Shown here in pieces: positions 6,754-56,339 of a stretch of 64,000 nt of DNA (positions are counted from its first letter, which is position 1; each line of letters begins with the position of its first letter). The notes below the pieces were generated by a model that did not search any database, was not told where the DNA came from, and was given only the letters and a program-made list of their open reading frames with translations. The translations under genes were made by a program, and so were the position numbers. Origin of the DNA: a bacterium (GTDB lineage Bacteria > UBA8248); contig OZ251456.1 of NCBI GenBank assembly GCA_965242545.1, forward strand, positions 316,076 through 380,075. The letters run 5' to 3'.

Positions 6754-6951
6754 TCAATTACCCCAACGTTCTTTTTCATACTTACTTTGATCTTCTCGGT
6801 TGAGCGGTTGCGATGAACAGTCTGCTCGAACAAAAAAATCTTGCTTGTCCTCAAATTTCGTGAAAACCGGTTTGCCACTTCGGGCTACCTTGATATGGCA
6901 AATTTCACAATCGTCATATATCGGGGTTAATTCTGGCTTGTAGCTCTTCAT
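6754..6951 (-). CDS. Small hypothetical protein (65 aa) in low-GC islet
   Basis: ORF overlapping the 3' end of the GmrSD-like gene. It has a low-GC composition like the islet, contains Cys/His (CEICH), and has no recognisable domain. Confidence 0.2.
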   Translation of the reverse strand: MKSYKPELTPIYDDCEICHIKVARSGKPVFTKFEDKQDFFVRADCSSQPLNREDQSKYEKERWGN

Positions 6952-8539
6952 ATATCCGCTCAGATCTGGCTTTCAGAAATGTGTCGTAATCATTGCTTTC
7001 AATTCCAAATCCGGCCAGATCAATGAAATGGGAATTTAATGCCTTATTGATCTCGGTGTTTTCATCTTGGAAAGTGCTGATATAGCTAGATGGTGCCTGC
7101 GCTTTGATTTTCTGTTTATTGAGACGTTCGCTAACCAGGGTTATATTGACCAAACTGTCGCTGTTGGAGGCATCAGCCTTGTTCTTTAAGTAAGCTTTGG
7201 GGAAGAAGTGATGATAATTCCTGCTGCTCGCTCTCTTCAGCCACGAGTTATCAAGAATTACTTTACCGCTATCTTGGAAGTCTTTCGGTTCTTGGGATGC
7301 CAGCAAACACAGAACTGCTTTACAGTAGCTGTTTCCTGCGCGGAAATTTGTATCAATCAAAGACTGCGGAGAGTCGAGATGGACTTTAATATCGCCATAA
7401 TCGGGCCGTTCATTAGCCAATATACGATCGATCCTTCTAGTGTCTTGAGCTAGTTTTGATTCCGTTGAGCTTGAATAACGACCTGACAAAGCCATGCGCC
7501 AGAAAAACTCTTGGAGATATTTTCGTTGGCGGGCCGTGGGTTCCTTCTTGTTCTGATAAAAGAAATACGCAAAAGGCACCAGCAAAAAATCGTATGGAAG
7601 TAGTTGCGATACCGGAATATGGTACTTGGTTCTGAAATACTCGATGCTGTCTTTGAGAGCGGAAATCGTCCCATCCCAATGATCGATGATAGATTGCTTG
7701 TCTAGCGCCAAAATAGTTTTACGCTTGCATTCCTTGGTGCGACTTAATGTCAATGATAGCAAATTTAGAATGACCGTGCTGGAAATACCTTCATATTCAA
7801 CATTTTCTAGGTCTTTGACGAAGCTCTTCCACTTCACTTGCATGTCAAATTTTTGGGCTTCGTCATAGGTTTTTGCAGACATGATTTCAAAGAGCGTAAG
7901 AGTTTGTCCGCTTGTGTTAATGCGAGTGAATACTTCGATTGCCGAGTCTATATCTTCTTTTCGCAAAACTACCGTTGAAAATTCGTAAGTCTTGAACGCC
8001 TCTGAATATGTGCCAACGGTTTTTAGCTCCTCGTGACTTAATCCATAATGTTTCCGAAGTTCTTCGCCGTCCGCAATGCCGGAAGTCAAAACTTTATGGA
8101 GCGATAGATATTTATTCCCTGTTGGTTCGGAAGTTATTATCTGATCGTCATTTTCGCAGTCGAGATTGACGACGATGTCGCGGTAATTGGTGGTCTTACT
8201 TTCGTCGCGCTTTGGTATTTCGGCGCCACGATAGGCGGCGAAGAGCGCCGTGATACGTTGCTGGCCGTCAAGTACATACTGGACCTTATTTCCTGCTCGT
8301 GTATGGGGAATTTTCAAATTGCCGACATTTCTGATATCGTTGAGACGCTGATCGGTTTCCCAAAGAATGAAGGTGCCGATTGGATAACCTTTAAGAATGC
8401 TGTCCAGTAATTTAGCGGTTTGCTCTATGCTCCAGACAGATTCGCGCTAGAATTTCGGAATTTTGATAATTCCTTTCTCAATTTCATAGATCAAATCAGA
8501 GTAGCCCTTTGAAGCTGGTTTTGGTTGTTCATGGCTCAT
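6914..8539 (-). pseudogene. GmrSD-like type IV restriction endonuclease (DUF262 N-terminal ParB-like domain plus DUF1524 HNH-like C-terminus), interrupted by an in-frame amber codon
   Basis: DGQQR motif and C-terminal HHFFPKAYL (DUF1524-like His-Me finger). Translation from ATG 8537-8539 reads MSHEQPKPASKGYSDLIYEIEKGIIKIPKF-TAG-RESVWSIEQTAKLLDSILKGYPIGTF. The TAG at 8447-8449 sits where the family has Gln in the conserved IP.FQR motif. The track ORF instead restarts at a TTG at 8317. GC is about 40%, against about 67% in the flanks. Confidence 0.6.
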
Positions 8540-50552: not shown

Positions 50553-51536
50553 ATGAAGAAAATCACCATGACGTTCGGCGTCCTGGCGCTGGCCCTGTCG
50601 TTTTTGACGACGGGCGGCGCCTACGGCGCGCCCGCGAAATACGACCTGGCGGTCGGCAGTCTGCGCGGGACGATGGGCAGGCTGGGCGCGGGCCTCACCG
50701 AGATTTTCAACAAGAAGCAGAACAAGGCCGCCATCAACGTGGTTCCCGGCGGCGGACGGGCGAACCCGGCGCGCCTGGGAACGGGCGGCGCGGATTTCGC
50801 CTATTCGTTCTCGAACTTCGCCAGCGCGGCGATCAGCGGCAAGACCCCCTACAAGAAGGCTTACAAGAACATCCGGGGCGTCGCCACGTTCTGGGCCTCC
50901 TGCTATCACCAGTACGCGGCCAGGGAGCTCTATGACGCGGGCGTCAGGACCTGGGGCGACATCATCAAGTCGAAGAAGCCCCTGAAGCTCGCCCCGGCCA
51001 AGAAGGGAACCAGCTCGGAATACGTGGCGAGCCTGATCGTCAAGCACTACGGCACGAGCTACAAGGAGCTCACGAAGCGGGGCTACAAGCTCACCTTCCC
51101 GGGCGCGGGCGGCATGTCGCGCGCGATTCGGGCGCGACAGATCGATTTCTACTTTCACAACTCGGGCGATCCCAACGGCGCGGGCATCCAGGCGGCTCTG
51201 GGCCGGAACCTCGTGTTCCTGGACATGGCCGACGACGTGAAGAAGATGCTGGCGAGCCATGGGTTCACGCCCTGCCGGATTCCGGGCGGCATCTACAAGG
51301 GCAGCGACGAGCCGAAGGATTCGATGGGGCTGTCCGGCGTGCTGCTCACCACGACCAAGATGAGCGCCGACGTGGTCTATTCGATTCTCAAGACGGCGCG
51401 GAGCGAGAAGAAATTCCTCTCGGGCGTCCACAAGATCTACAAGAGGTGGGACCCGAAGAAGGCGGGCATGAACGTCGGCGCGCCCCTGCACGAGGGCGCC
51501 AAGCGCTTCTACAGGGAGATCGGGGCGCTGAACTAG
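50553..51536 (+). CDS. TRAP transporter solute receptor, TAXI family
   Basis: Signal peptide. TAXI-family layout (GSLRGTMGRLGAGLTEIF...VVPGGG.ANP). Confidence 0.8.
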   Translation: MKKITMTFGVLALALSFLTTGGAYGAPAKYDLAVGSLRGTMGRLGAGLTEIFNKKQNKAAINVVPGGGRANPARLGTGGADFAYSFSNFASAAISGKTPYKKAYKNIRGVATFWASCYHQYAARELYDAGVRTWGDIIKSKKPLKLAPAKKGTSSEYVASLIVKHYGTSYKELTKRGYKLTFPGAGGMSRAIRARQIDFYFHNSGDPNGAGIQAALGRNLVFLDMADDVKKMLASHGFTPCRIPGGIYKGSDEPKDSMGLSGVLLTTTKMSADVVYSILKTARSEKKFLSGVHKIYKRWDPKKAGMNVGAPLHEGAKRFYREIGALN

Positions 51537-51561
51537 CCCCTTTCGGCGAAGAGGCGCAGGC

Positions 51562-53517
51562 GTGAGCGACGATAAGGAAAGGACGCCCCTGGACTGGCTC
51601 GTTCTGGCGATAGCGGTCGCCATGTCCGTCTTTCACATCCAGGTCGCCTACACGGGAGGCTATGAGCCGCTTTACCAGCGGGCGCTTTCCTACCTGTTCG
51701 GGATGGCCCTGATCTTCATCGTCTACGGAAGACCGGCGGGAGGAGGATGGCGCGCCGCCCTGGCGGCGGCCGTCTTCCTCCTGGCGGTCGTCTCGATCGC
51801 CTACCCGATACTGAACATCGACTATTTTCTGGATCGCCTCTATTACGTCGATCCGCTGACGCCCGTCGATTTGATCCTGGGCACGGCGGTTCTGGCGCTC
51901 ACCTTCGAGGCGGCGCGGAGAACCATCAACCTGGCGCTGCCGATGATATCGCTTTTCTTCATCGTCTATTCCTACTTCGGCCCCTATTTTCCCTGGCATC
52001 TGGCGCACAAGGGCGCTTCCTACATGCACATCGTGGATCATCAATACATGACCTACGACGGCCTCTGGACGGCGCCCCTGAGCGTTTTCTCGGTCTACAT
52101 CTTCCTGTTCATCCTGTTCGGCGCCTTTCTGGACCGCATGGGCGCCGCCGATTTCTACGTGAAGCTCTCCATGGCCGCCGCGGGCAATCTGCGGGGGGGA
52201 CCCGCCAAGGCGGCGGTTTTCGCCAGCGCGATGACCGGAACCATCATGGGCAGCGCCAACGCGAACGTGGTGACGACCGGCTCGTTCACCATTCCGATGA
52301 TGAAGCGCGCGGGATTCCGGCCGGAGATATCGGCGGCGATCGAGACGGCGGCCTCCACGGGGGGGCAAATCATGCCGCCCGTCATGGGCGCGTCCGCGTT
52401 CCTGATCGTGGAGTTCACCGGCATCTCGTATTGGGAGATCGTCAAGGTATCCATCCTGCCCGCCGCTCTGTATTTCTTCTCCGTCTACGCGATTGTTCAC
52501 CTGGAGGCGAGAAAGGAGGGACTGGTGGGCGTGCCGAGGGAGATGATTCCCCCTCTGGGCCCCATCCTGAGAGAAGGGTGGTTCTACCTTCTTCCGCCCG
52601 TCGTGATTCTGCTGGTTCTCATGACGGGGCGAAGCGTTCCCTACGCGGGCCTCGCCGGCATTCTCTCCGTCGTGCTTCTGGCGGGACTCAAGGGCGGCCT
52701 GGCCCTGTGGCGGAAAGCGAGGACGCGGGGGACGAGCGTCGGCGAGGTGGCGGGCGAGGCGCTCAGGGGGCTTTGGAACGTCGTGCTGGCGCTGGAGAAG
52801 GGCGCGGTGCAGTCGCTTCCGATATGCGCCGCCGTGGGCGCGGTGGGCATCATCATGGGGGCGCTGTTTCAGACCGGCCTGGGGCTCAAGTTCTCCTCCC
52901 TGGTTACGAATCTGGCGAACGACAGCCTGTTTCTGGGGATTCTTCTGGTGGGCGTGGCCTCGTTCGTGCTCGGCATGGGCCTGCCGACGAGCGCCGCCTA
53001 CATCGTCCTGTCGGTCATGGCGGTGCCCGCGCTCCTGGAGCTCGGCGAGCCGTACGGCCTCTCGCTTCTCTCCGCCCACCTCATCGTCTTCTGGTACAGC
53101 CTGGACAGCTGCTTCACGCCCCCCGTGTGCGTGCCCGCCTATACGGCGGCGGGCATCGCGAACGCCAACCCGGCGAAGGCCGCCTGGGCTTCTTTCCGCA
53201 CGGCCAAGGGCATGTATATCGTCCCCTTGATGTTCGCCTTCACCCCGATTCTGCTCATCCGCCAACCATGGCTCTCCCTGGAGACGTTCCTCGCCGCCCT
53301 GCTCGGTTTTCAGGCGCTGGCGGCCGCGATGGTCGGGTTCATGTATTTCTCCTTCACGAGGCTGACGCGCGCGCTTCTTTTCCTCTCGGCGGGGCTCCTG
53401 TTCTGGCCGGCCTACGAATGCCACGCGGCGGGCGCGCTCATCCTGGGCGCGATATTCGTGCTGCAGAAAAGACGCCTCGCCGAGGAAGGAGAGCCCGCCC
53501 CCGCCGCCGCGTCCTGA
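51562..53517 (+). CDS. TRAP transporter fused permease (TAXI-associated DctQM-like)
   Basis: 651 aa with about 18 TM helices, immediately downstream of the TAXI receptor. Confidence 0.8.
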   Translation: MSDDKERTPLDWLVLAIAVAMSVFHIQVAYTGGYEPLYQRALSYLFGMALIFIVYGRPAGGGWRAALAAAVFLLAVVSIAYPILNIDYFLDRLYYVDPLTPVDLILGTAVLALTFEAARRTINLALPMISLFFIVYSYFGPYFPWHLAHKGASYMHIVDHQYMTYDGLWTAPLSVFSVYIFLFILFGAFLDRMGAADFYVKLSMAAAGNLRGGPAKAAVFASAMTGTIMGSANANVVTTGSFTIPMMKRAGFRPEISAAIETAASTGGQIMPPVMGASAFLIVEFTGISYWEIVKVSILPAALYFFSVYAIVHLEARKEGLVGVPREMIPPLGPILREGWFYLLPPVVILLVLMTGRSVPYAGLAGILSVVLLAGLKGGLALWRKARTRGTSVGEVAGEALRGLWNVVLALEKGAVQSLPICAAVGAVGIIMGALFQTGLGLKFSSLVTNLANDSLFLGILLVGVASFVLGMGLPTSAAYIVLSVMAVPALLELGEPYGLSLLSAHLIVFWYSLDSCFTPPVCVPAYTAAGIANANPAKAAWASFRTAKGMYIVPLMFAFTPILLIRQPWLSLETFLAALLGFQALAAAMVGFMYFSFTRLTRALLFLSAGLLFWPAYECHAAGALILGAIFVLQKRRLAEEGEPAPAAAS

Positions 53518-53634
53518 GAGGCCGGCTCCACGCGAAGCGGCGGCGCTCCCTCGCGCCGAATCCGCATCGCCCGTCCGCCTTTTGCCCGCGCTCCCGACCC
53601 GTGAAGTCCCGCGGGGGCGCGCCGGGAGGTTCGC

Positions 53635-54534
53635 TTGCGCGTCACGCTGCTTGAGAATTTCCGCGCCGTTTTCTACGCGCCGTTCTACGCCGCCCTCGCG
53701 CTGGGGCTCTACGAGGAGGAGGGCGTCGAGGTTCGCCTCGAACAATCGCCCGATCCCGCTCAAACCGCGGACCTGCTCATGTCCGGCGGCGCGCGGGTGA
53801 GCTGGGGCGGGCCCATGCGCGTCATGGCGGCGTATGATCGCGCGCCCGGCTGCGATCTGAAAATTTTCTGCGAGGTCGTCCGGCGGGACCCGTTCTTTCT
53901 CATCGGGAAGGAGCCGAACCCGGCGTTTCGGATGCGCGATTTGACGGACGGGAAAATCGCCGTCGTCAGCGAGGTGCCCACCCCCTGGCTCTGCCTTCAG
54001 CGCGACTTGCGCCTGGCAGGCCTCGAGCCGGAGGCGCTGAACGGAATCACGGATCGGACGATGGCCGAAAACGCCGCGGCGCTCCGCGCGGGCGAGGTGG
54101 ACGTCGTTCAGGCGTTTCAGCCCCTGGCGGAGGAACTGATCGAGGAGGGCGCGGGCCACCTCTGGTATGCGGCGGCGGATCGGGGGCTGACGACCTACAC
54201 GGCTCTTTACGCGCGGGCCGCGTTTTTGCGGGAGGCGCCCGAAGCCGCCCTCGCCATGACGAAAGCCATGCGCGGAGCGGGGCGCTGGCTCGCCGGGCGT
54301 GGCGCGGAGGAGGTCGCCCGGAGCGTGCGTCCCTGGTTCGAGGACGTTCCTTTCGGGCTTCTGGCGCGCGCGATCGCGCGCTATCAGCAACTCGGCCTCT
54401 GGAACGAAAGCCCCCGCCTCGCGCGCGGGAGCTTCGAGTGGCTGCGCGCCGCCTGCCTGAGCGGCGGGCTGATAAAAACGGGCGTCTCCTACGATCGGGC
54501 GGTGGACATGCGCTTCGCCGACGCGGTCGCCTGA
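53635..54534 (+). CDS. NMT1/THI5-like (SsuA/TauA-fold) binding-domain protein without an obvious signal peptide
   Basis: Periplasmic-binding-protein type 2 fold signatures. No clear ATG start; GTG or TTG likely. Confidence 0.5.
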   Translation: MRVTLLENFRAVFYAPFYAALALGLYEEEGVEVRLEQSPDPAQTADLLMSGGARVSWGGPMRVMAAYDRAPGCDLKIFCEVVRRDPFFLIGKEPNPAFRMRDLTDGKIAVVSEVPTPWLCLQRDLRLAGLEPEALNGITDRTMAENAAALRAGEVDVVQAFQPLAEELIEEGAGHLWYAAADRGLTTYTALYARAAFLREAPEAALAMTKAMRGAGRWLAGRGAEEVARSVRPWFEDVPFGLLARAIARYQQLGLWNESPRLARGSFEWLRAACLSGGLIKTGVSYDRAVDMRFADAVA

Positions 54535-54557
54535 GCGGCGGCCGACGCGGATCGCCG

Positions 54558-54777
54558 CAGGGACAACCCCCCGTGGTTGTCCCGTTTTCATCGCGCCGCC
54601 GGACGCGAAACGGGACGCATATATGCGTGGGACGCGCCCCTCGGCGCGTCACCTACAAAAACCGCCGCCCGCCTTGTTTTGTCGATGGAATGTTTCGCCC
54701 GTAGGGGGCGCATACATGCGCCCCGCGCATAGGTTGGCGACGACGCGGCGCGAACAACCACGGGGGGTTGTCCCTAC
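54558..54777. repeat. Structured intergenic element: about 24-bp terminal inverted repeats (GGGACAACCCCCCGTGGTTGTCCC / GAACAACCACGGGGGGTTGTCCC) flanking about 170 bp with nested palindromes
   Basis: The left arm at 54560-54583 is itself a 9-bp hairpin. The right arm at 54752-54774 is its reverse complement with complementary loops. Internal palindromes ACGCATATATGCGT (about 54614) and GGGGCGCATACATGCGCCCC (about 54704). ACAAAA...TTTTGT arms lie around a GC core. Confidence 0.5.
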
Positions 54778-55127
54778 GGAATCGACAAAACCCGCGCATT
54801 TGCCCGCATTTGCGGTCGCCCGAAAAGAAGCGAAAAAGGGACCATTCGAGCCGAAACGCGCCCGATCCCCGATCAAAAGGGCGTCTTTTTCCGTCGAACC
54901 GAGAACCTTTCAATTCAAATACAATCGAGCGAATTCAAAACGAATTCAAGGCGTTTTCAGGCGAGTTGACGCGCTTTCAGGAACGCATAACCGATTGATT
55001 CAAAACGAAAAACGCCGAAAGATGGGGAATTTTATCGAAAAAGACGGGATCGGGTTGATCGCCCTCTCGCCCCGATCGACCCCTTCGTCCGCTCCGATCT
55101 GCCTTCGCCGCCCCTGCCGGGGTCGGC

Positions 55128-56339
55128 TCATCCTCCGGCGGGTTGAGAGCCCGGGGCGCGGACGACGCCCGACGAGAGCAGCGCCCGGACGCGCTCCTCC
55201 GGCAGGCCGAGAATCCCCCGGAGAACCTCCTCGGTGTCGCCTCCGAGCAGGGGAGCCGGCGCGGGGTCGGGGTTTCCGCCGGCCGCGCGGTTCAGGATGG
55301 GGTTGCCCACCACCTTCACCCGGCCGGCTTCGGGGTATTCGTATTCCCGGATCAGGCGCCGCGCCCTGACCTGCTCGTTGTCCAGGGCGCGATCCAGCGG
55401 GTTCACCGGCGCGGAGGGCACGCCCGCCGCCTCGAAGAGCGCGAGCCATTCCTCGCCCGGCCGCCGGGCGAGAATCTCCTCCATGACGGGCAGCAGCGCG
55501 TCCCGGTTCTCGGCGCGGAGGTTGTTCGTGCGGAAGCGCGGGTCGTCCGCCAGCGCGTCCATGCCCATGACCTCGCACATCTTCCGCCAGAAGCGCTCCT
55601 CGCGCGGGGAGAGCACGATGTAGATCGTCGCGGTCGGAAACGCCTGATAGGGCACCATGTATTCGTGCGCGCTGCCGGGCGGCTCGGGCACGTCGCCGCC
55701 GTTCAGGAACATGGTGGCGATGTATCCGAGCATGGCGAGCTGCACGTCGAACATGGGCACCTCGAGGTGCGCCGCGCCCCCGCCCTTCGCCCTGCCGAGG
55801 AGTCCCGCCATGCAGGCGATGGCGGTATAGAGGGCGGTGGAGATGTCCGCCGTGGGCGAGCCGTTCCTGGCGGGCGGGCGGTTCGGCTCGCCGGTGATGG
55901 ACATGTGGCCGCTCACGGCCTGCTCGACGAGATCGAAGGCGGGCTTGTCGCGCCACGGGCCCTGCTCGCCGTATCCGCTCGAATCGACGAACACGATTTC
56001 GGGGTTTCGCTCCCTCATCGCCTCGAAGCCCAGACCCAGCCGCGCCATCGTCCCGGGCCGGAAGTTCACCATCACGGCGTCGGACTTCTCCACGAGGGAG
56101 AGGAAGACCTCCCGGCCTTCGGGCTTTTTCAGGTCGATGACGACGCTCTTCTTGCCCCGGTTGAAGGTGAGGAAGATGCTCGAGACGGGGCCGATGCCGG
56201 CGATGGCGGGATTGCGCCCGATGTCGCCCTGGGGGGATTCGATCTTGATGACCTCGGCGCCCATGTCGGCCAGAATCATGCCGCCGATCGCGCCGGCGAT
56301 GACCTGTCCGAGATCGAGAACGCGGTAGCCTTCCAGCAT
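55128..56339 (-). CDS. CoA-transferase family III (CaiB/BaiF/formyl-CoA transferase-like)
   Basis: MLEGYRVLDLGQVIAGAIGGMILADMGAEVIKIE N-terminal signature. 403 aa. Confidence 0.85.
   Translation of the reverse strand: MLEGYRVLDLGQVIAGAIGGMILADMGAEVIKIESPQGDIGRNPAIAGIGPVSSIFLTFNRGKKSVVIDLKKPEGREVFLSLVEKSDAVMVNFRPGTMARLGLGFEAMRERNPEIVFVDSSGYGEQGPWRDKPAFDLVEQAVSGHMSITGEPNRPPARNGSPTADISTALYTAIACMAGLLGRAKGGGAAHLEVPMFDVQLAMLGYIATMFLNGGDVPEPPGSAHEYMVPYQAFPTATIYIVLSPREERFWRKMCEVMGMDALADDPRFRTNNLRAENRDALLPVMEEILARRPGEEWLALFEAAGVPSAPVNPLDRALDNEQVRARRLIREYEYPEAGRVKVVGNPILNRAAGGNPDPAPAPLLGGDTEEVLRGILGLPEERVRALLSSGVVRAPGSQPAGG

What the first reader, a model, noticed from the sequence alone, without database searches (positions are those of the whole stretch)
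54540..54800. Palindrome-rich element bounded by ~24-bp inverted repeats in a 590-bp convergent intergenic region
Terminal repeats GGGACAACCCCCCGTGGTTGTCCC (54560-54583) and its reverse complement (54752-54774), each a hairpin on its own, flank about 170 bp containing further perfect palindromes (ACGCATATATGCGT; GGGGCGCATACATGCGCCCC). A MITE-like or REP/BIME-like structure, a bidirectional terminator array, or a structured sRNA are all possible. It is not explained by the flanking genes.
Basis: seen in the sequence. Interest (0 to 1): 0.5.

Follow-up and report, generated by a model that had tools for sequence, protein, structure and literature searches.

The report
Cluster of GTAG-tagged REP hairpins
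The palindrome-rich stretch is not one bounded element but a cluster of four or five short REP hairpins, the common bacterial intergenic repeats linked to RAYT transposases, sitting between two convergent genes; it is an ordinary kind of feature, though this REP family is shared by bacteria of several phyla.

Summary
Window 54557-54777 contains the reported 24-nt hairpin, an inverted near-copy with 2 mismatches, and more palindromes, far beyond chance.

It is not a single element with terminal repeats. It is a BIME-like cluster of separate REP hairpins in alternating orientation, four of them carrying a 5' GTAG or GCAG tag.

Each hairpin type recurs on its own in related genomes labelled Nitrospinota or Tectomicrobia. 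The usual form of REP-A is a head-out dimer: GTAGGGACAACC-CCCYGT-GGTTGTCCC, a short spacer, then GGACAGGC-ACRGGG-GCCTGTCCCTAC. The loop is conserved and the stems are compensated.

A strain 98% identical shares only the left half. Its left arm is mutated, an extra REP is inserted, its right REP-A has the opposite orientation, and its downstream genes differ. The orthologous site carries different REPs in five relatives and none in a sixth.

RAYT (Y1 transposase) genes lie next to GTAGGGACAA-type REPs in three genomes, one from this lineage. The 64-kb window has no RAYT, and the source genome's copy number could not be tested.

Verdict: a new member of a known kind (GTAG-tagged REPs). MITE and sRNA readings are not supported. 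A terminator or 3'-end role is plausible but secondary.

The parts
53635..54534 (+). Left flanking gene: an NMT1/TauT-type ABC substrate-binding protein, stop codon TGA at 54532-54534. Context only.
   Evidence: Pfam NMT1 and NMT1_2. Homologues of 300 aa cover 99-100% of it, and some are named 'Nitrospinae bacterium'.
54557..54583 (+). REP-A1: a degenerate tag GCAG (54557-60), a 9-bp stem GGGACAACC/GGTTGTCCC and a loop CCCCGT, followed by GTTTTC.
   Evidence: DNA hairpin -9.5 kcal/mol, z = -3.7. It is the only terminator-like hit in the region. The exact 24-mer occurs in 13 or more loci of other genomes.
54612..54628 (.). REP-C remnant: GGGACGCATATATGCGT, with perfect palindrome ACGCATATATGCGT at 54615-28. 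Its 3' arm is decayed.
   Evidence: The intact family form GTAGGGGACGCATATATGCGTCCC is at L047:3620 and L121:4554, and a variant at L119:7032.
54630..54656 (-). A minus-strand REP: GTAG-GT, stem GACGCGCC/GGCGCGTC, loop GAGG. It forms a two-hairpin compound with the REP-C remnant.
   Evidence: DNA fold of the compound is -16.6 kcal/mol, z = -4.3. A homologous compound with a compensated stem, GTAGGTGGCGCTCCCTTCTTGGGAGCGCCGCATATATGCGGCC, occurs twice in L020.
54676..54686 (.). Left arm of an 11-nt perfect inverted repeat, GTTTTGTCGAT. The partner is at 54781-54791. Together they bracket REP-B and REP-A2.
   Evidence: Pair I13. The left arm is also present in strain L119 (as GCTTTGTCGAT); the right arm is not.
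54701..54724 (+). REP-B: GTAG followed by GGGGCGCA-TACA-TGCGCCCC.
   Evidence: Copies of CGTAGGGGGCGCATWCWTGCGCCCCG are in L047, L008 and L111 (all from OZ241326.1), and a variant is in L038.
54725..54750 (+). Linker GCGCATAGGTTGGCGACGACGCGGCGC, which travels with REP-B as a composite unit.
   Evidence: The same REP-B, linker and REP-A composite is seen at L047:3340-3465 and twice in L119 (3780-3860 and, inverted, 6905-7000).
54751..54777 (-). REP-A2: on the minus strand GTAG followed by GGACAACC-CCCCGT-GGTTGTTC(G). The 3' arm is decayed, leaving a 6-bp stem. It sits exactly at the point where homology to the sister strain ends.
   Evidence: The fold is no better than shuffles. Homology to L119 stops at window 54752, and L119 carries REP-A in the opposite orientation there.
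54781..54791 (.). Right arm of the 11-nt perfect inverted repeat, ATCGACAAAAC.
   Evidence: I13.
54795..54815 (+). Motif CGCATTTGCCCGCATTTGCGG, two 10-bp direct repeats. It is adjacent to the REP cluster but not part of it, and it belongs to another recurring non-coding module.
   Evidence: The same motif (4 or fewer mismatches) is found in L020, L032, L046 (3 copies), L047 (2), L076 (2), L084, L089, L102 and L111, usually 100-330 nt from an AT-rich block.
54880..55060 (.). AT-rich block (GC about 0.49 against 0.70 background) with boxes such as GAATTTTATCGAAAAAG. It belongs to the CoA-transferase side and is probably an orphaned promoter region.
   Evidence: Composition. It is present, diverged to 76% identity, downstream of the 97.5%-identical CoA-transferase in L124. 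In L125-L129 the same position holds an AT-rich region that I read as a TTGATT-N17-TATATT promoter (by eye, from the sequence printed) in front of a Mg-chelatase/ComM-type gene (Pfam ChlI, Mg_chelatase).
55128..56339 (-). Right flanking gene: a family III CoA-transferase. Context only.
   Evidence: Pfam CoA_transf_3, E = 1e-117. Homologues are named Nitrospinota or Candidatus Tectomicrobia.

Best explanation
Window 54557-54777 is a cluster of GTAG-tagged repetitive extragenic palindromes (REPs). It is organised like a BIME or REP group: four or five independent 24-30 nt hairpins of at least three sequence families (REP-A twice, REP-B, a REP-C remnant and a GTAGGT-type REP), in the order + + - + -. 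The two 'terminal inverted repeats' are simply two REP-A copies with their tags pointing outward. That is a head-to-head (HH) arrangement with an unusually long spacer, because other REPs lie between them.

Shown here:
- Each hairpin type is a member of a repeat family present in several copies in related genomes.
- The family keeps the tag and the loop (CCCYGT) while the stems change by compensated substitutions.
- The site just 3' of this substrate-binding-protein gene is REP-occupied in most relatives, with rapid turnover.
- The right-hand REP-A lies at a strain-level synteny breakpoint.
- RAYT genes lie directly beside GTAGGGACAA-type REPs in other genomes.

Inferred, from what is established for E. 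coli RayT and REP and for REPINs:
- The hairpins form in single-stranded DNA and, together with the GTAG tag, are recognised, cut and rejoined by a RAYT (HUH/Y1 transposase) encoded elsewhere in the genome.
- New copies tend to land next to old ones, which builds clusters that then decay.
- Locally, the first hairpin probably serves as the terminator or 3'-end stabiliser of the binding-protein mRNA, and the cluster blocks read-through between the convergent units.
- The repeats serve as substrates for rearrangement.
For: Anatomy. GTAG or GCAG tags precede hairpins at 54557(+), 54656(-), 54701(+) and 54777(-). These are the only such hairpins clustered anywhere in the 64-kb window.

Family.
- A scan of genome contigs for the bare hairpin returned 118 hairpins. 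Of these, 59 have the TA of a GTAG/CTAC tag directly adjacent, against about 14 expected.
- In chromosomes of the same lineage the canonical form is an HH heterodimer: GTAGGGACAACC-CCCYGT-GGTTGTCCC, a spacer of roughly 5-60 nt (read by eye), then GGACAGGC-ACRGGG-GCCTGTCCCTAC.
- Stems GGACAACC (25 copies), GGACAGGC (22), GGGCGGCC (4) and GGGACGGC (1) all carry the loop CCCYGT.
- Several copies per genome were found even in a truncated scan: OZ241326.1 in 4 loci, CBDCMA01 in 4, JAJDYR01 in 4.
- REP-B, REP-C and the compound REP recur in OZ241326.1, L038, L020, L121 and L119.

Turnover.
- Strain L119 is 98.2% identical over window 50976-54707. Its REP-A1 arm is mutated, it has a 43-nt insertion carrying a different REP, its REP-A2 is in the opposite orientation, and it has unrelated downstream genes.
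- The orthologous site carries different GTAG REPs in L121, L210, L211 and L212. L212 has a canonical REP-A/A' dimer. L123 has none.

RAYT link.
- The L098 ORF matches Pfam Y1_Tnp above threshold, and its best NCBIfam hit is REP_Tyr_transpos (69 bits, against 15 for IS200). It has GTAGGGACAATCC... in its 5' flank and GTAGGGACAACCCTAGGGTTGTCCCTAC inside it.
- In L051 a RAYT C-terminus lies about 25 nt from the same REP.
- L032:117-1(-), from lineage chromosome OZ241996.1, is a RAYT N-terminus (HMM E = 7.7e-11, stronger than the E. coli RayT control). REP clusters of this family lie directly upstream.
- In 80 metagenomic relatives of that RAYT, GTAG hairpins occur at 1.8 per kb in the flanks against 0.28 per kb elsewhere.

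Literature. GTAG tag, 6-13 bp stems, HH/TT dimers, heterodimers with different stems, clusters, and a preference for convergent or unidirectional intergenic regions downstream of ORFs are the described properties of GTAG REPs (PMC3733652).
Against: - The source genome itself could not be examined. There is no second copy of any of these REPs in the other 63 kb of the window and no RAYT in the window. Multi-copy status and a cognate RAYT are therefore inferred from relatives.
- The RAYT evidence within the lineage is a 39-residue N-terminal fragment cut off by a locus edge.
- Unselected loci of relatives (about 57 kb) contain no GTAG hairpins, so this is not a REP-dense genome of the E. coli or Pseudomonas type.
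- REP-A1 has GCAG rather than GTAG. REP-A2 and REP-C are decayed.
- The 167-nt distance between the two REP-A copies is outside the 20-100 bp usual for dimers (PMC3733652).
- No transcript or biochemical data exist for any step of the mechanism.
Confidence: 0.85

Rival explanations
1. A MITE: one ~220-bp non-autonomous transposon bounded by 24-26 bp terminal inverted repeats and moved as a unit by a DDE transposase.
For: There is a 26-nt inverted repeat at 96% complementarity, 173 nt apart. The whole region folds into one long hairpin. By eye, a 4-nt ATCG lies just outside both arms.
Against: - The unit is not repeated as a whole in the window, in 129 related loci, or in the plasmid or phage collections.
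- In a 98%-identical strain the two arms behave independently: the left is mutated, the right is inverted, and there are extra insertions and different flanking DNA.
- Each arm is a stand-alone REP. Elsewhere it pairs with a different partner (GGACAGGC type) at a spacing of roughly 5-60 nt.
- A 4-nt flank match is weak evidence.
Confidence: 0.04
2. Nothing more than convergent intrinsic terminators: the hairpins exist only to end transcription of the two converging operons.
For: REP-A1 starts 25 nt after the stop codon and is followed by GTTTTC. It is the single terminator-like hit. As RNA it folds at -16.5 kcal/mol. The position between convergent genes fits.
Against: - Only 4 U follow the stem.
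- The terminator scan found 1 site against 1.9 expected in shuffles.
- No hairpin lies near the CoA-transferase stop, which is 350 nt away.
- Identical 24-mers with GTAG tags recur in many unrelated intergenic contexts and in other phyla, usually without a T-run. Gene-specific terminators do not do that.
- In the sister strain the 5' arm of this hairpin is mutated.
Confidence: 0.06
3. A structured small RNA or cis-regulatory RNA encoded in the intergenic region.
For: Folding z-scores are strong on both strands. An AT-rich, promoter-like block lies 100-300 nt to the right and could drive minus-strand transcription through the cluster.
Against: - No Rfam family matches, even at E = 10, apart from three chance-level hits, and none in four related loci.
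- The structure is not conserved as a unit even at 98% strain identity.
- The fold energy is explained by self-complementary REPs, and both strands fold equally well, as expected for DNA palindromes.
Confidence: 0.03
4. The juxtaposition is an assembly artefact: two unrelated contigs were joined through the shared REP-A repeat, so the 'bounded element' is chimeric.
For: Strain-level homology on the left ends exactly at REP-A2 (54752). No comparator spans 54753-54970, and the contigs of related strains break or diverge here.
Against: - The shared repeat is only about 25 nt, shorter than usual assembly k-mers.
- An 11-nt perfect inverted repeat spans the junction.
- Rearranged downstream neighbours are the rule at this site in complete long-read chromosomes as well.
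- Even if the join were chimeric, the REP cluster 54557-54750 is confirmed independently in L119.
Confidence: 0.05

Closest known systems
GTAG-tagged REPs and REPtrons (Di Nocera, De Gregorio and Rocco 2013, PMC3733652; RAYT/TnpA-REP systems, PMC3479197, PMC6006769)
   Same: An unpaired 5' GTAG (here once GCAG) tag followed by a 6-10 bp stem. Several REP families coexist in one genome. HH dimers and heterodimers have different stems, and stem changes are compensated. Copies form clusters. They sit downstream of ORFs between convergent genes. The TAG of the tag supplies the stop codon in relatives (L121, L210, L211). RAYT genes are flanked by the same REP type (L098, L051, L032).
   Different: The loop is 6-7 nt and conserved (CCCYGT) across stem variants, whereas most described loops are 2-4 nt. 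The hosts are uncultured bacteria labelled Nitrospinota/Tectomicrobia, Latescibacterota and Nitrospirota, which are not in the 2013 survey as far as I read it. The exact 24-mer is shared across phyla. Copy number in the source genome is unknown.
E. coli BIMEs (bacterial interspersed mosaic elements)
   Same: REPs of different subtypes alternate in orientation within one intergenic region. The two partners of a dimer differ in their stems, as the Y and Z REPs do.
   Different: There are no conserved L, S or similar linker motifs, and no IHF (RIP) site was identified. The members come from at least three unrelated REP families rather than Y/Z variants of one. Spacers are irregular.
REPINs (Bertels and Rainey 2011, PMC3116915)
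   Same: The canonical REP-A/A' doublet in related genomes is two inverted REPs about 5-30 nt apart that could fold into one long hairpin. That fits the REPIN definition.
   Different: The window's pair (two A-type REPs 167 nt apart with other REPs between them) does not recur as a unit. It is not conserved in the sister strain, so it is not itself a replicating REPIN.
MITEs with terminal inverted repeats (for example Correia or ERIC-type elements)
   Same: Small size, intergenic position, inverted ends and the potential for a long hairpin.
   Different: There are no full-length copies, no convincing target-site duplication, and the ends behave independently between strains. The ends are self-complementary hairpins with GTAG tags.

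Membership tests
GTAG-tagged REP (REP/RAYT system) | A short (20-40 bp) imperfect palindrome able to form a stem-loop | tested here: met
   There are four hairpins of 24-30 nt. DNA folds are -9.5, -16.6 (the compound) and -11.2 kcal/mol, with z from -3.0 to -4.3. The fifth (REP-A2) has decayed.
GTAG-tagged REP (REP/RAYT system) | An unpaired GT[AG]G-type tag at one end | tested here: met
   GTAG at 54701(+), 54656(-) and 54777(-); GCAG at 54557(+). Family-wide, the tag is adjacent in 59 of 118 hairpins against about 14 expected. GYAG variants are accepted in the literature.
GTAG-tagged REP (REP/RAYT system) | Extragenic location, typically 3' of ORFs in convergent or unidirectional intergenic regions | tested here: met
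   It lies in the 593-bp convergent intergenic region, and both flanking ORFs are full length compared with homologues.
GTAG-tagged REP (REP/RAYT system) | Many copies dispersed in the same genome | not testable with these tools
   Only 64 kb of the source genome is available, and it holds no further copies.
GTAG-tagged REP (REP/RAYT system) | A cognate RAYT (Y1 HUH transposase) gene in the genome, flanked by the same REPs | tested here: inconclusive
   There is no RAYT in the window. In lineage chromosome OZ241996.1 a RAYT N-terminal fragment (HMM E = 7.7e-11) lies just downstream of REPs with the same tag and loop. Full RAYTs are flanked by GTAGGGACAA-type REPs in L098 and L051.
BIME (E. coli type) | Alternating inverted REPs of two subtypes separated by conserved linker motifs, some of which bind IHF | tested here: not met
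   Alternating orientation is present, but the members belong to different REP families. Apart from the one linker that travels with REP-B, no conserved linker set recurs. IHF binding was not tested.
REPIN | Two inverted REPs with a short spacer that recur and replicate as one unit | tested here: not met
   The window's REP-A pair (167-nt spacer) is unique and is not conserved in strain L119. The canonical REP-A/A' doublets in relatives do meet the definition.
MITE | Multiple full-length copies bounded by terminal inverted repeats and target-site duplications | tested here: not met
   No second full-length copy was found anywhere searched. The arms vary independently between strains.
Intrinsic (Rho-independent) terminator | A GC-rich hairpin immediately followed by a U-tract, at the 3' end of a transcription unit | tested here: inconclusive
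   REP-A1 followed by GTTTTC passes the consensus scan, but only 1 site was found against 1.9 expected in shuffles, and the tail has only 4 U. No transcript data are available.
Known structured RNA (Rfam 15) | A match to a curated covariance model | tested here: not met
   There are only three chance-level hits at E of 0.76 or more, far below the gathering scores. There are none in four related loci.

The most novel reading that the evidence does not exclude
REP-A is a single REP lineage that has moved between phyla sharing a host habitat. The exact 24-mer GGGACAACCCCCCGTGGTTGTCCC, with its GTAG tag, occurs in genomes labelled Nitrospinota, Nitrospira/Nitrospirales and Latescibacterota (the last in complete chromosomes), and in several unnamed chromosomes related to the window. 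At least some of these are sponge-associated. REP/RAYT systems are described as predominantly vertically inherited. An inter-phylum spread of a REPtron among co-resident symbionts would therefore be an exception. This REP also has a conserved 6-7 nt loop, which suggests loop-specific recognition. The cognate RAYT clade may in addition carry its own REP in-frame inside the gene.
Probability: 0.3. Interest if true: 0.55.

Novelty: new member of a known kind. Interest (0 to 1): 0.3.

Why it matters
For the window itself, the result removes a candidate oddity. The 'bounded element' is an ordinary REP cluster, and annotation should call it REPs, not a MITE or an sRNA. It also flags 54752 as a strain-level rearrangement point, which matters to anyone using synteny or assemblies from this lineage.

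More broadly, the work defines a REP family in uncultured genomes labelled Nitrospinota or Tectomicrobia: GTAG tag, conserved CCCYGT loop, compensated stems, head-out heterodimers. The same 24-mer turns up in other phyla. If that reflects transfer, the usual view that REP/RAYT systems are inherited vertically would need an exception.

A by-product may be of separate interest to people who study HUH transposases. In a widespread RAYT clade the cognate REP sits in-frame at a fixed position just after the HUH motif, in about 70% of the genes examined.

Tried and rejected
- Rfam on the region at E up to 10, and on four related loci at gathering thresholds: nothing meaningful.
- BLAST of the 261-nt unit against the plasmid and phage collections, and a viral-contig scan for tagged REP-A: no match.
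- Exact-protein look-up of the CoA-transferase: not on record. The source contig was never found, so genome-wide copy number and RAYT presence could not be tested.
- RAYT searches of the window and 129 loci, using E. coli RayT tblastn, a HUH...YxxxNP motif, the L098 RAYT and a 73-sequence HMM: hits only in L098, L051 and L032.
- An attempt to recover the full L032 RAYT from its N-terminal fragment failed. The query was first too short, and then no candidate was found.
- The idea that CGCATANATGCG marks transcription-factor sites elsewhere in the window: the two other near-matches (36363, 42113) have no REP context and look like chance.
- Target-site duplication: only a 4-nt ATCG was seen by eye, which is not convincing.
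- I first suspected that the AT-rich block with the CGCATTTGCC motif was part of the element. Comparison with L124-L129 shows it belongs to the CoA-transferase side, where relatives have the promoter region of the next gene.
- A literature search for RAYT plus sponge found nothing relevant.
Full report
**Observation.** The reported sequence features are real. GGGACAACC-CCCCGT-GGTTGTCCC lies at 54560-54583. An inverted copy with two mismatches at its outer end lies at 54751-54774. The inverted repeat extends to 26 nt at 96% complementarity, with 173 nt between the arms. No shuffle of the window gave a single match. The 266-nt region folds 6-7 standard deviations better than shuffles on either strand. 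It lies in a 593-bp convergent gap between an NMT1/TauT-type substrate-binding protein gene (53635-54534, +) and a family III CoA-transferase gene (55128-56339, -).

Two details need correction. The right arm is a decayed hairpin, no better than shuffles. And GGGGCGCATACATGCGCCCC is a hairpin, not a perfect palindrome.

**Anatomy.** Read on both strands, the stretch resolves into separate short hairpins, four of which are preceded by an unpaired GTAG or GCAG:
- REP-A1: + strand, GCAG at 54557.
- A decayed GGGACGCATATATGCGT (REP-C): 54612-28.
- A minus-strand GTAG-GT-GACGCGCC-GAGG-GGCGCGTC: tag at 54653-56.
- REP-B: + strand, GTAG at 54701, then GGGGCGCA-TACA-TGCGCCCC.
- REP-A2: minus strand, tag at 54774-77.

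These are the only clustered GTAG hairpins in the 64-kb window. A 5' GTAG tag on a 6-13 bp stem is the signature of the largest REP super-family. So are alternating orientation, head-out (HH) dimers, and a position downstream of ORFs in convergent gaps (PMC3733652).

**The hairpins belong to repeat families.** Half of the 118 hairpins have the TA of a GTAG/CTAC tag directly adjacent, against about 14 expected.

In a group of chromosomes and MAGs labelled Nitrospinota, or only 'bacterium', the element has a canonical form. It is GTAGGGACAACC-CCCYGT-GGTTGTCCC, a spacer of roughly 5-60 nt (read by eye), then GGACAGGC-ACRGGG-GCCTGTCCCTAC. This is a head-out heterodimer whose second REP has a compensated stem (AACC/GGTT becomes AGGC/GCCT) and the same loop. 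Further stems (GGGCGGCC, GGGACGGC) carry the same loop. Several loci per genome were hit despite the truncation.

REP-B recurs three times in OZ241326.1 and once in JAJDYR01. REP-C recurs in intact, GTAG-tagged form in L047, L121 and L119. The two-hairpin compound at 54612-56 has a homologue with a compensated stem, present twice in L020.

Homologues of both flanking proteins tie the window to this same group of genomes.

**It is not one bounded unit.** Contig L119 is 98.2% identical to window 50976-54707. Within the cluster it differs in four ways:
- The REP-A1 5' arm is mutated (GGGACATCTCCCCGTGGTTGTCCC).
- A 43-nt insertion carrying another REP (GTAGGGGCGGTTCGGGAACCGCCC) sits at window position ~54707.
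- REP-A2 is in the opposite orientation.
- Homology ends at window 54752. After that L119 continues into luciferase-like, pterin-4a and glycosyltransferase genes rather than the CoA-transferase operon.

The composite of REP-B, linker and REP-A occurs twice in L119, in inverted orientation around those genes, and also in L047.

At the orthologous site just 3' of the binding-protein gene:
- L121 has a different REP set more than 650 bp long.
- L210 and L211 have other GTAG REPs whose TAG is the gene's stop codon.
- L212 has a canonical REP-A/A' dimer, followed by an IS110 transposase gene.
- L123 has only a plain hairpin.

The downstream gene differs in nearly every genome. The whole 220-bp unit matches nothing in the related loci, plasmids or phages. 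This pattern fits independent REPs that accumulate and decay at a favoured site. It rules out a MITE.

**Link to RAYT transposases.** The window has no RAYT. Among the loci brought in by the hairpin scan:
- L098 (Ignavibacteria) encodes a Y1 transposase: Pfam Y1_Tnp at 30.9 bits (cut-off 23), and NCBIfam REP-associated tyrosine transposase at 69 bits against IS200 at 15. It has GTAGGGACAATCC... in its 5' flank.
- L051 (Falkowbacteria) has a RAYT C-terminus about 25 nt from GTAGGGACAACCCTAGGGTTGTCCCTAC.
- L032 (chromosome OZ241996.1, of the window's lineage) has a RAYT N-terminus at its edge: HMM E = 7.7e-11, stronger than the E. coli RayT control. REPs with the same tag and loop lie immediately upstream.

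Eighty metagenomic relatives of the L098 RAYT show GTAG hairpins at 1.8 per kb in their flanks against 0.28 per kb elsewhere.

**The right half of the gap.** Positions 54795-55060 hold a motif, CGCATTTGCCCGCATTTGCGG, and an AT-rich block. The 97.5% strain L124 has the AT-rich block too, diverged, plus a 190-nt REP-containing insertion. In relatives at 83-89% protein identity the same position holds an AT-rich region that I read as a TTGATT-N17-TATATT promoter (by eye, from the sequence printed) in front of a Mg-chelatase/ComM-type gene. This part therefore belongs to the CoA-transferase side and is probably an orphaned promoter region. The present gene adjacency looks like the product of a rearrangement whose left breakpoint is REP-A2. 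The motif with an AT-rich block recurs as a module in about ten other loci. I did not resolve what it is.

**Mechanism.** Shown: family membership, tag and loop conservation with compensated stems, clustering, turnover at an orthologous site, coincidence with a synteny break, and RAYT genes next to this REP type.

Inferred from the E. coli RayT-REP structure and biochemistry and from REPIN work (PMC3479197, PMC3116915, PMC5581495): the hairpins form in single-stranded DNA and are recognised together with the GTAG tag by a RAYT encoded elsewhere. The RAYT cuts and rejoins them, and new copies land beside old ones. Secondary roles are plausible: termination or 3'-end protection of the binding-protein mRNA by REP-A1, and insulation between convergent units.

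**Rivals.** The MITE reading fails on copy number and on strain behaviour. The sRNA reading has no Rfam support, and the unit is not conserved. 'Only terminators' cannot explain identical tagged 24-mers in unrelated contexts and phyla. An assembly chimera at REP-A2 cannot be excluded for the right-hand join, but it would not affect the identity of the cluster.

**Novelty.** This is a new member of a known kind. Less ordinary points:
- The 6-7 nt conserved loop.
- The presence of the exact 24-mer in genomes labelled Nitrospinota, Nitrospira/Nitrospirales and Latescibacterota. The SB0662 bin series and PCPOR2b are sponge-associated according to PMC7883664. The habitat of the other assemblies rests on my own knowledge and is unverified.
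- The in-ORF REP of the RAYT clade (see items noticed in passing).

RAYT systems are reported as predominantly vertically inherited (PMC5581495), so inter-phylum sharing would be worth testing.

Noticed in passing
L098:357-384; L130-L209 (RAYT loci): In a clade of RAYT-like Y1 transposases the cognate GTAG-tagged REP (single, dimer or several) lies in-frame inside the gene, just after the HUH motif. 58 of 80 loci have at least one. Plus-strand copies sit at a median of 253 nt (IQR 245-261) from the start of the match. Density is 2.5 per kb inside the genes against 0.28 per kb in the background. In 27 loci the 12-nt head of an inside copy matches one in the flank (1 mismatch allowed). 68 of 73 proteins keep both the HUH and YxxxNP motifs. 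The REP-coded peptides include VGATRRVAPT, VGAGFKPAPT and RRDNPRVVPT. I found no mention of this in the three REP/RAYT papers I text-searched.
   Followed up: partly
window 54795-54815 and 54880-55060; L020, L032, L046, L047, L076, L084, L089, L102, L111: A recurring non-coding module. It has the motif CGCATTT(C/G)CCCGCATTTGC(C/G)G, which is two 10-bp direct repeats, sometimes in 2-3 copies. A second box, TAT(C/G)(G/C)T, follows about 25 nt downstream in several loci. An AT-rich block with boxes such as TTTTTCGA(C/T)AAATTC lies 100-330 nt away, often upstream of a gene start. There is no Rfam match and the function is unknown. It may be a regulator site with a promoter.
   Followed up: partly
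window 54707-54752 compared with L119:3736-3870; window 55090-55094 compared with L124:1352-1539: Strain-level structural differences coincide with REPs. There is a 43-nt REP-carrying insertion, an inverted REP-A and loss of synteny at 54752 relative to L119. L124 has a 190-nt REP-containing insertion just 3' of the CoA-transferase gene.
   Followed up: yes
L121:3917-3919, L210:4901-4903, L211:4901-4903, L123:6907-6909: In four relatives the stop codon of the substrate-binding-protein gene is the TAG of a GTAG. In L121, L210 and L211 a REP hairpin follows it directly, as described for GTAG REPs in PMC3733652. In L123 no hairpin follows the GTAG. The window and L119 use TGA instead.
   Followed up: partly
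window 54676-54686 and 54781-54791: An 11-nt perfect inverted repeat, GTTTTGTCGAT / ATCGACAAAAC, brackets REP-B and REP-A2 across the strain-level breakpoint. The left arm is shared with L119 and the right arm is not. It resembles the TTTGTCGA boxes of the AT-rich modules.
   Followed up: no
L006, L063, L104, L011, L048, L069, L100, L106 and others: REP-A, exact or with one loop change, is found with its GTAG tag in genomes labelled Nitrospira/Nitrospirales and in complete Latescibacterota chromosomes. In the latter it pairs with a different partner, GGGCGGGC-ACAGGGG-CACCGCCCCTAC. Related GTAGGGACAACC-loop-GGTTGTCCCTAC palindromes occur in CPR bacteria, Dehalococcoidia, Poribacteria and Bacteroidota.
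   Followed up: partly
L098:560-565: In the L098 RAYT the codon where relatives have the catalytic tyrosine (IREYIANNP) is TAA. The gene is therefore a pseudogene, or the contig has a sequencing error.
   Followed up: no
L007, L008, L013, L032, L046, L047, L111, L121, L211 and others; L010, L032, L039, L058, L212 and others: Relatives carry two further repeat families that are absent from the window. One is the CGTC-tagged hairpin CGTCATTCCGGCGAAGGCCGGAATCC (33 hits in 17 loci). The other is the C-rich repeat AAAACCAACCCCCCCTACCCCCCCTTGACAGGGGGG (34 hits in 13 loci).
   Followed up: partly
L212:5283-6308: An IS110-family transposase gene (Pfam DEDD_Tnp_IS110, Transposase_20) lies about 240 bp past the REP-A/A' dimer downstream of the orthologous binding-protein gene in OZ244799.1. 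This is consistent with reports of insertion sequences sitting in or next to REPs (abstract of PMC8450116).
   Followed up: no
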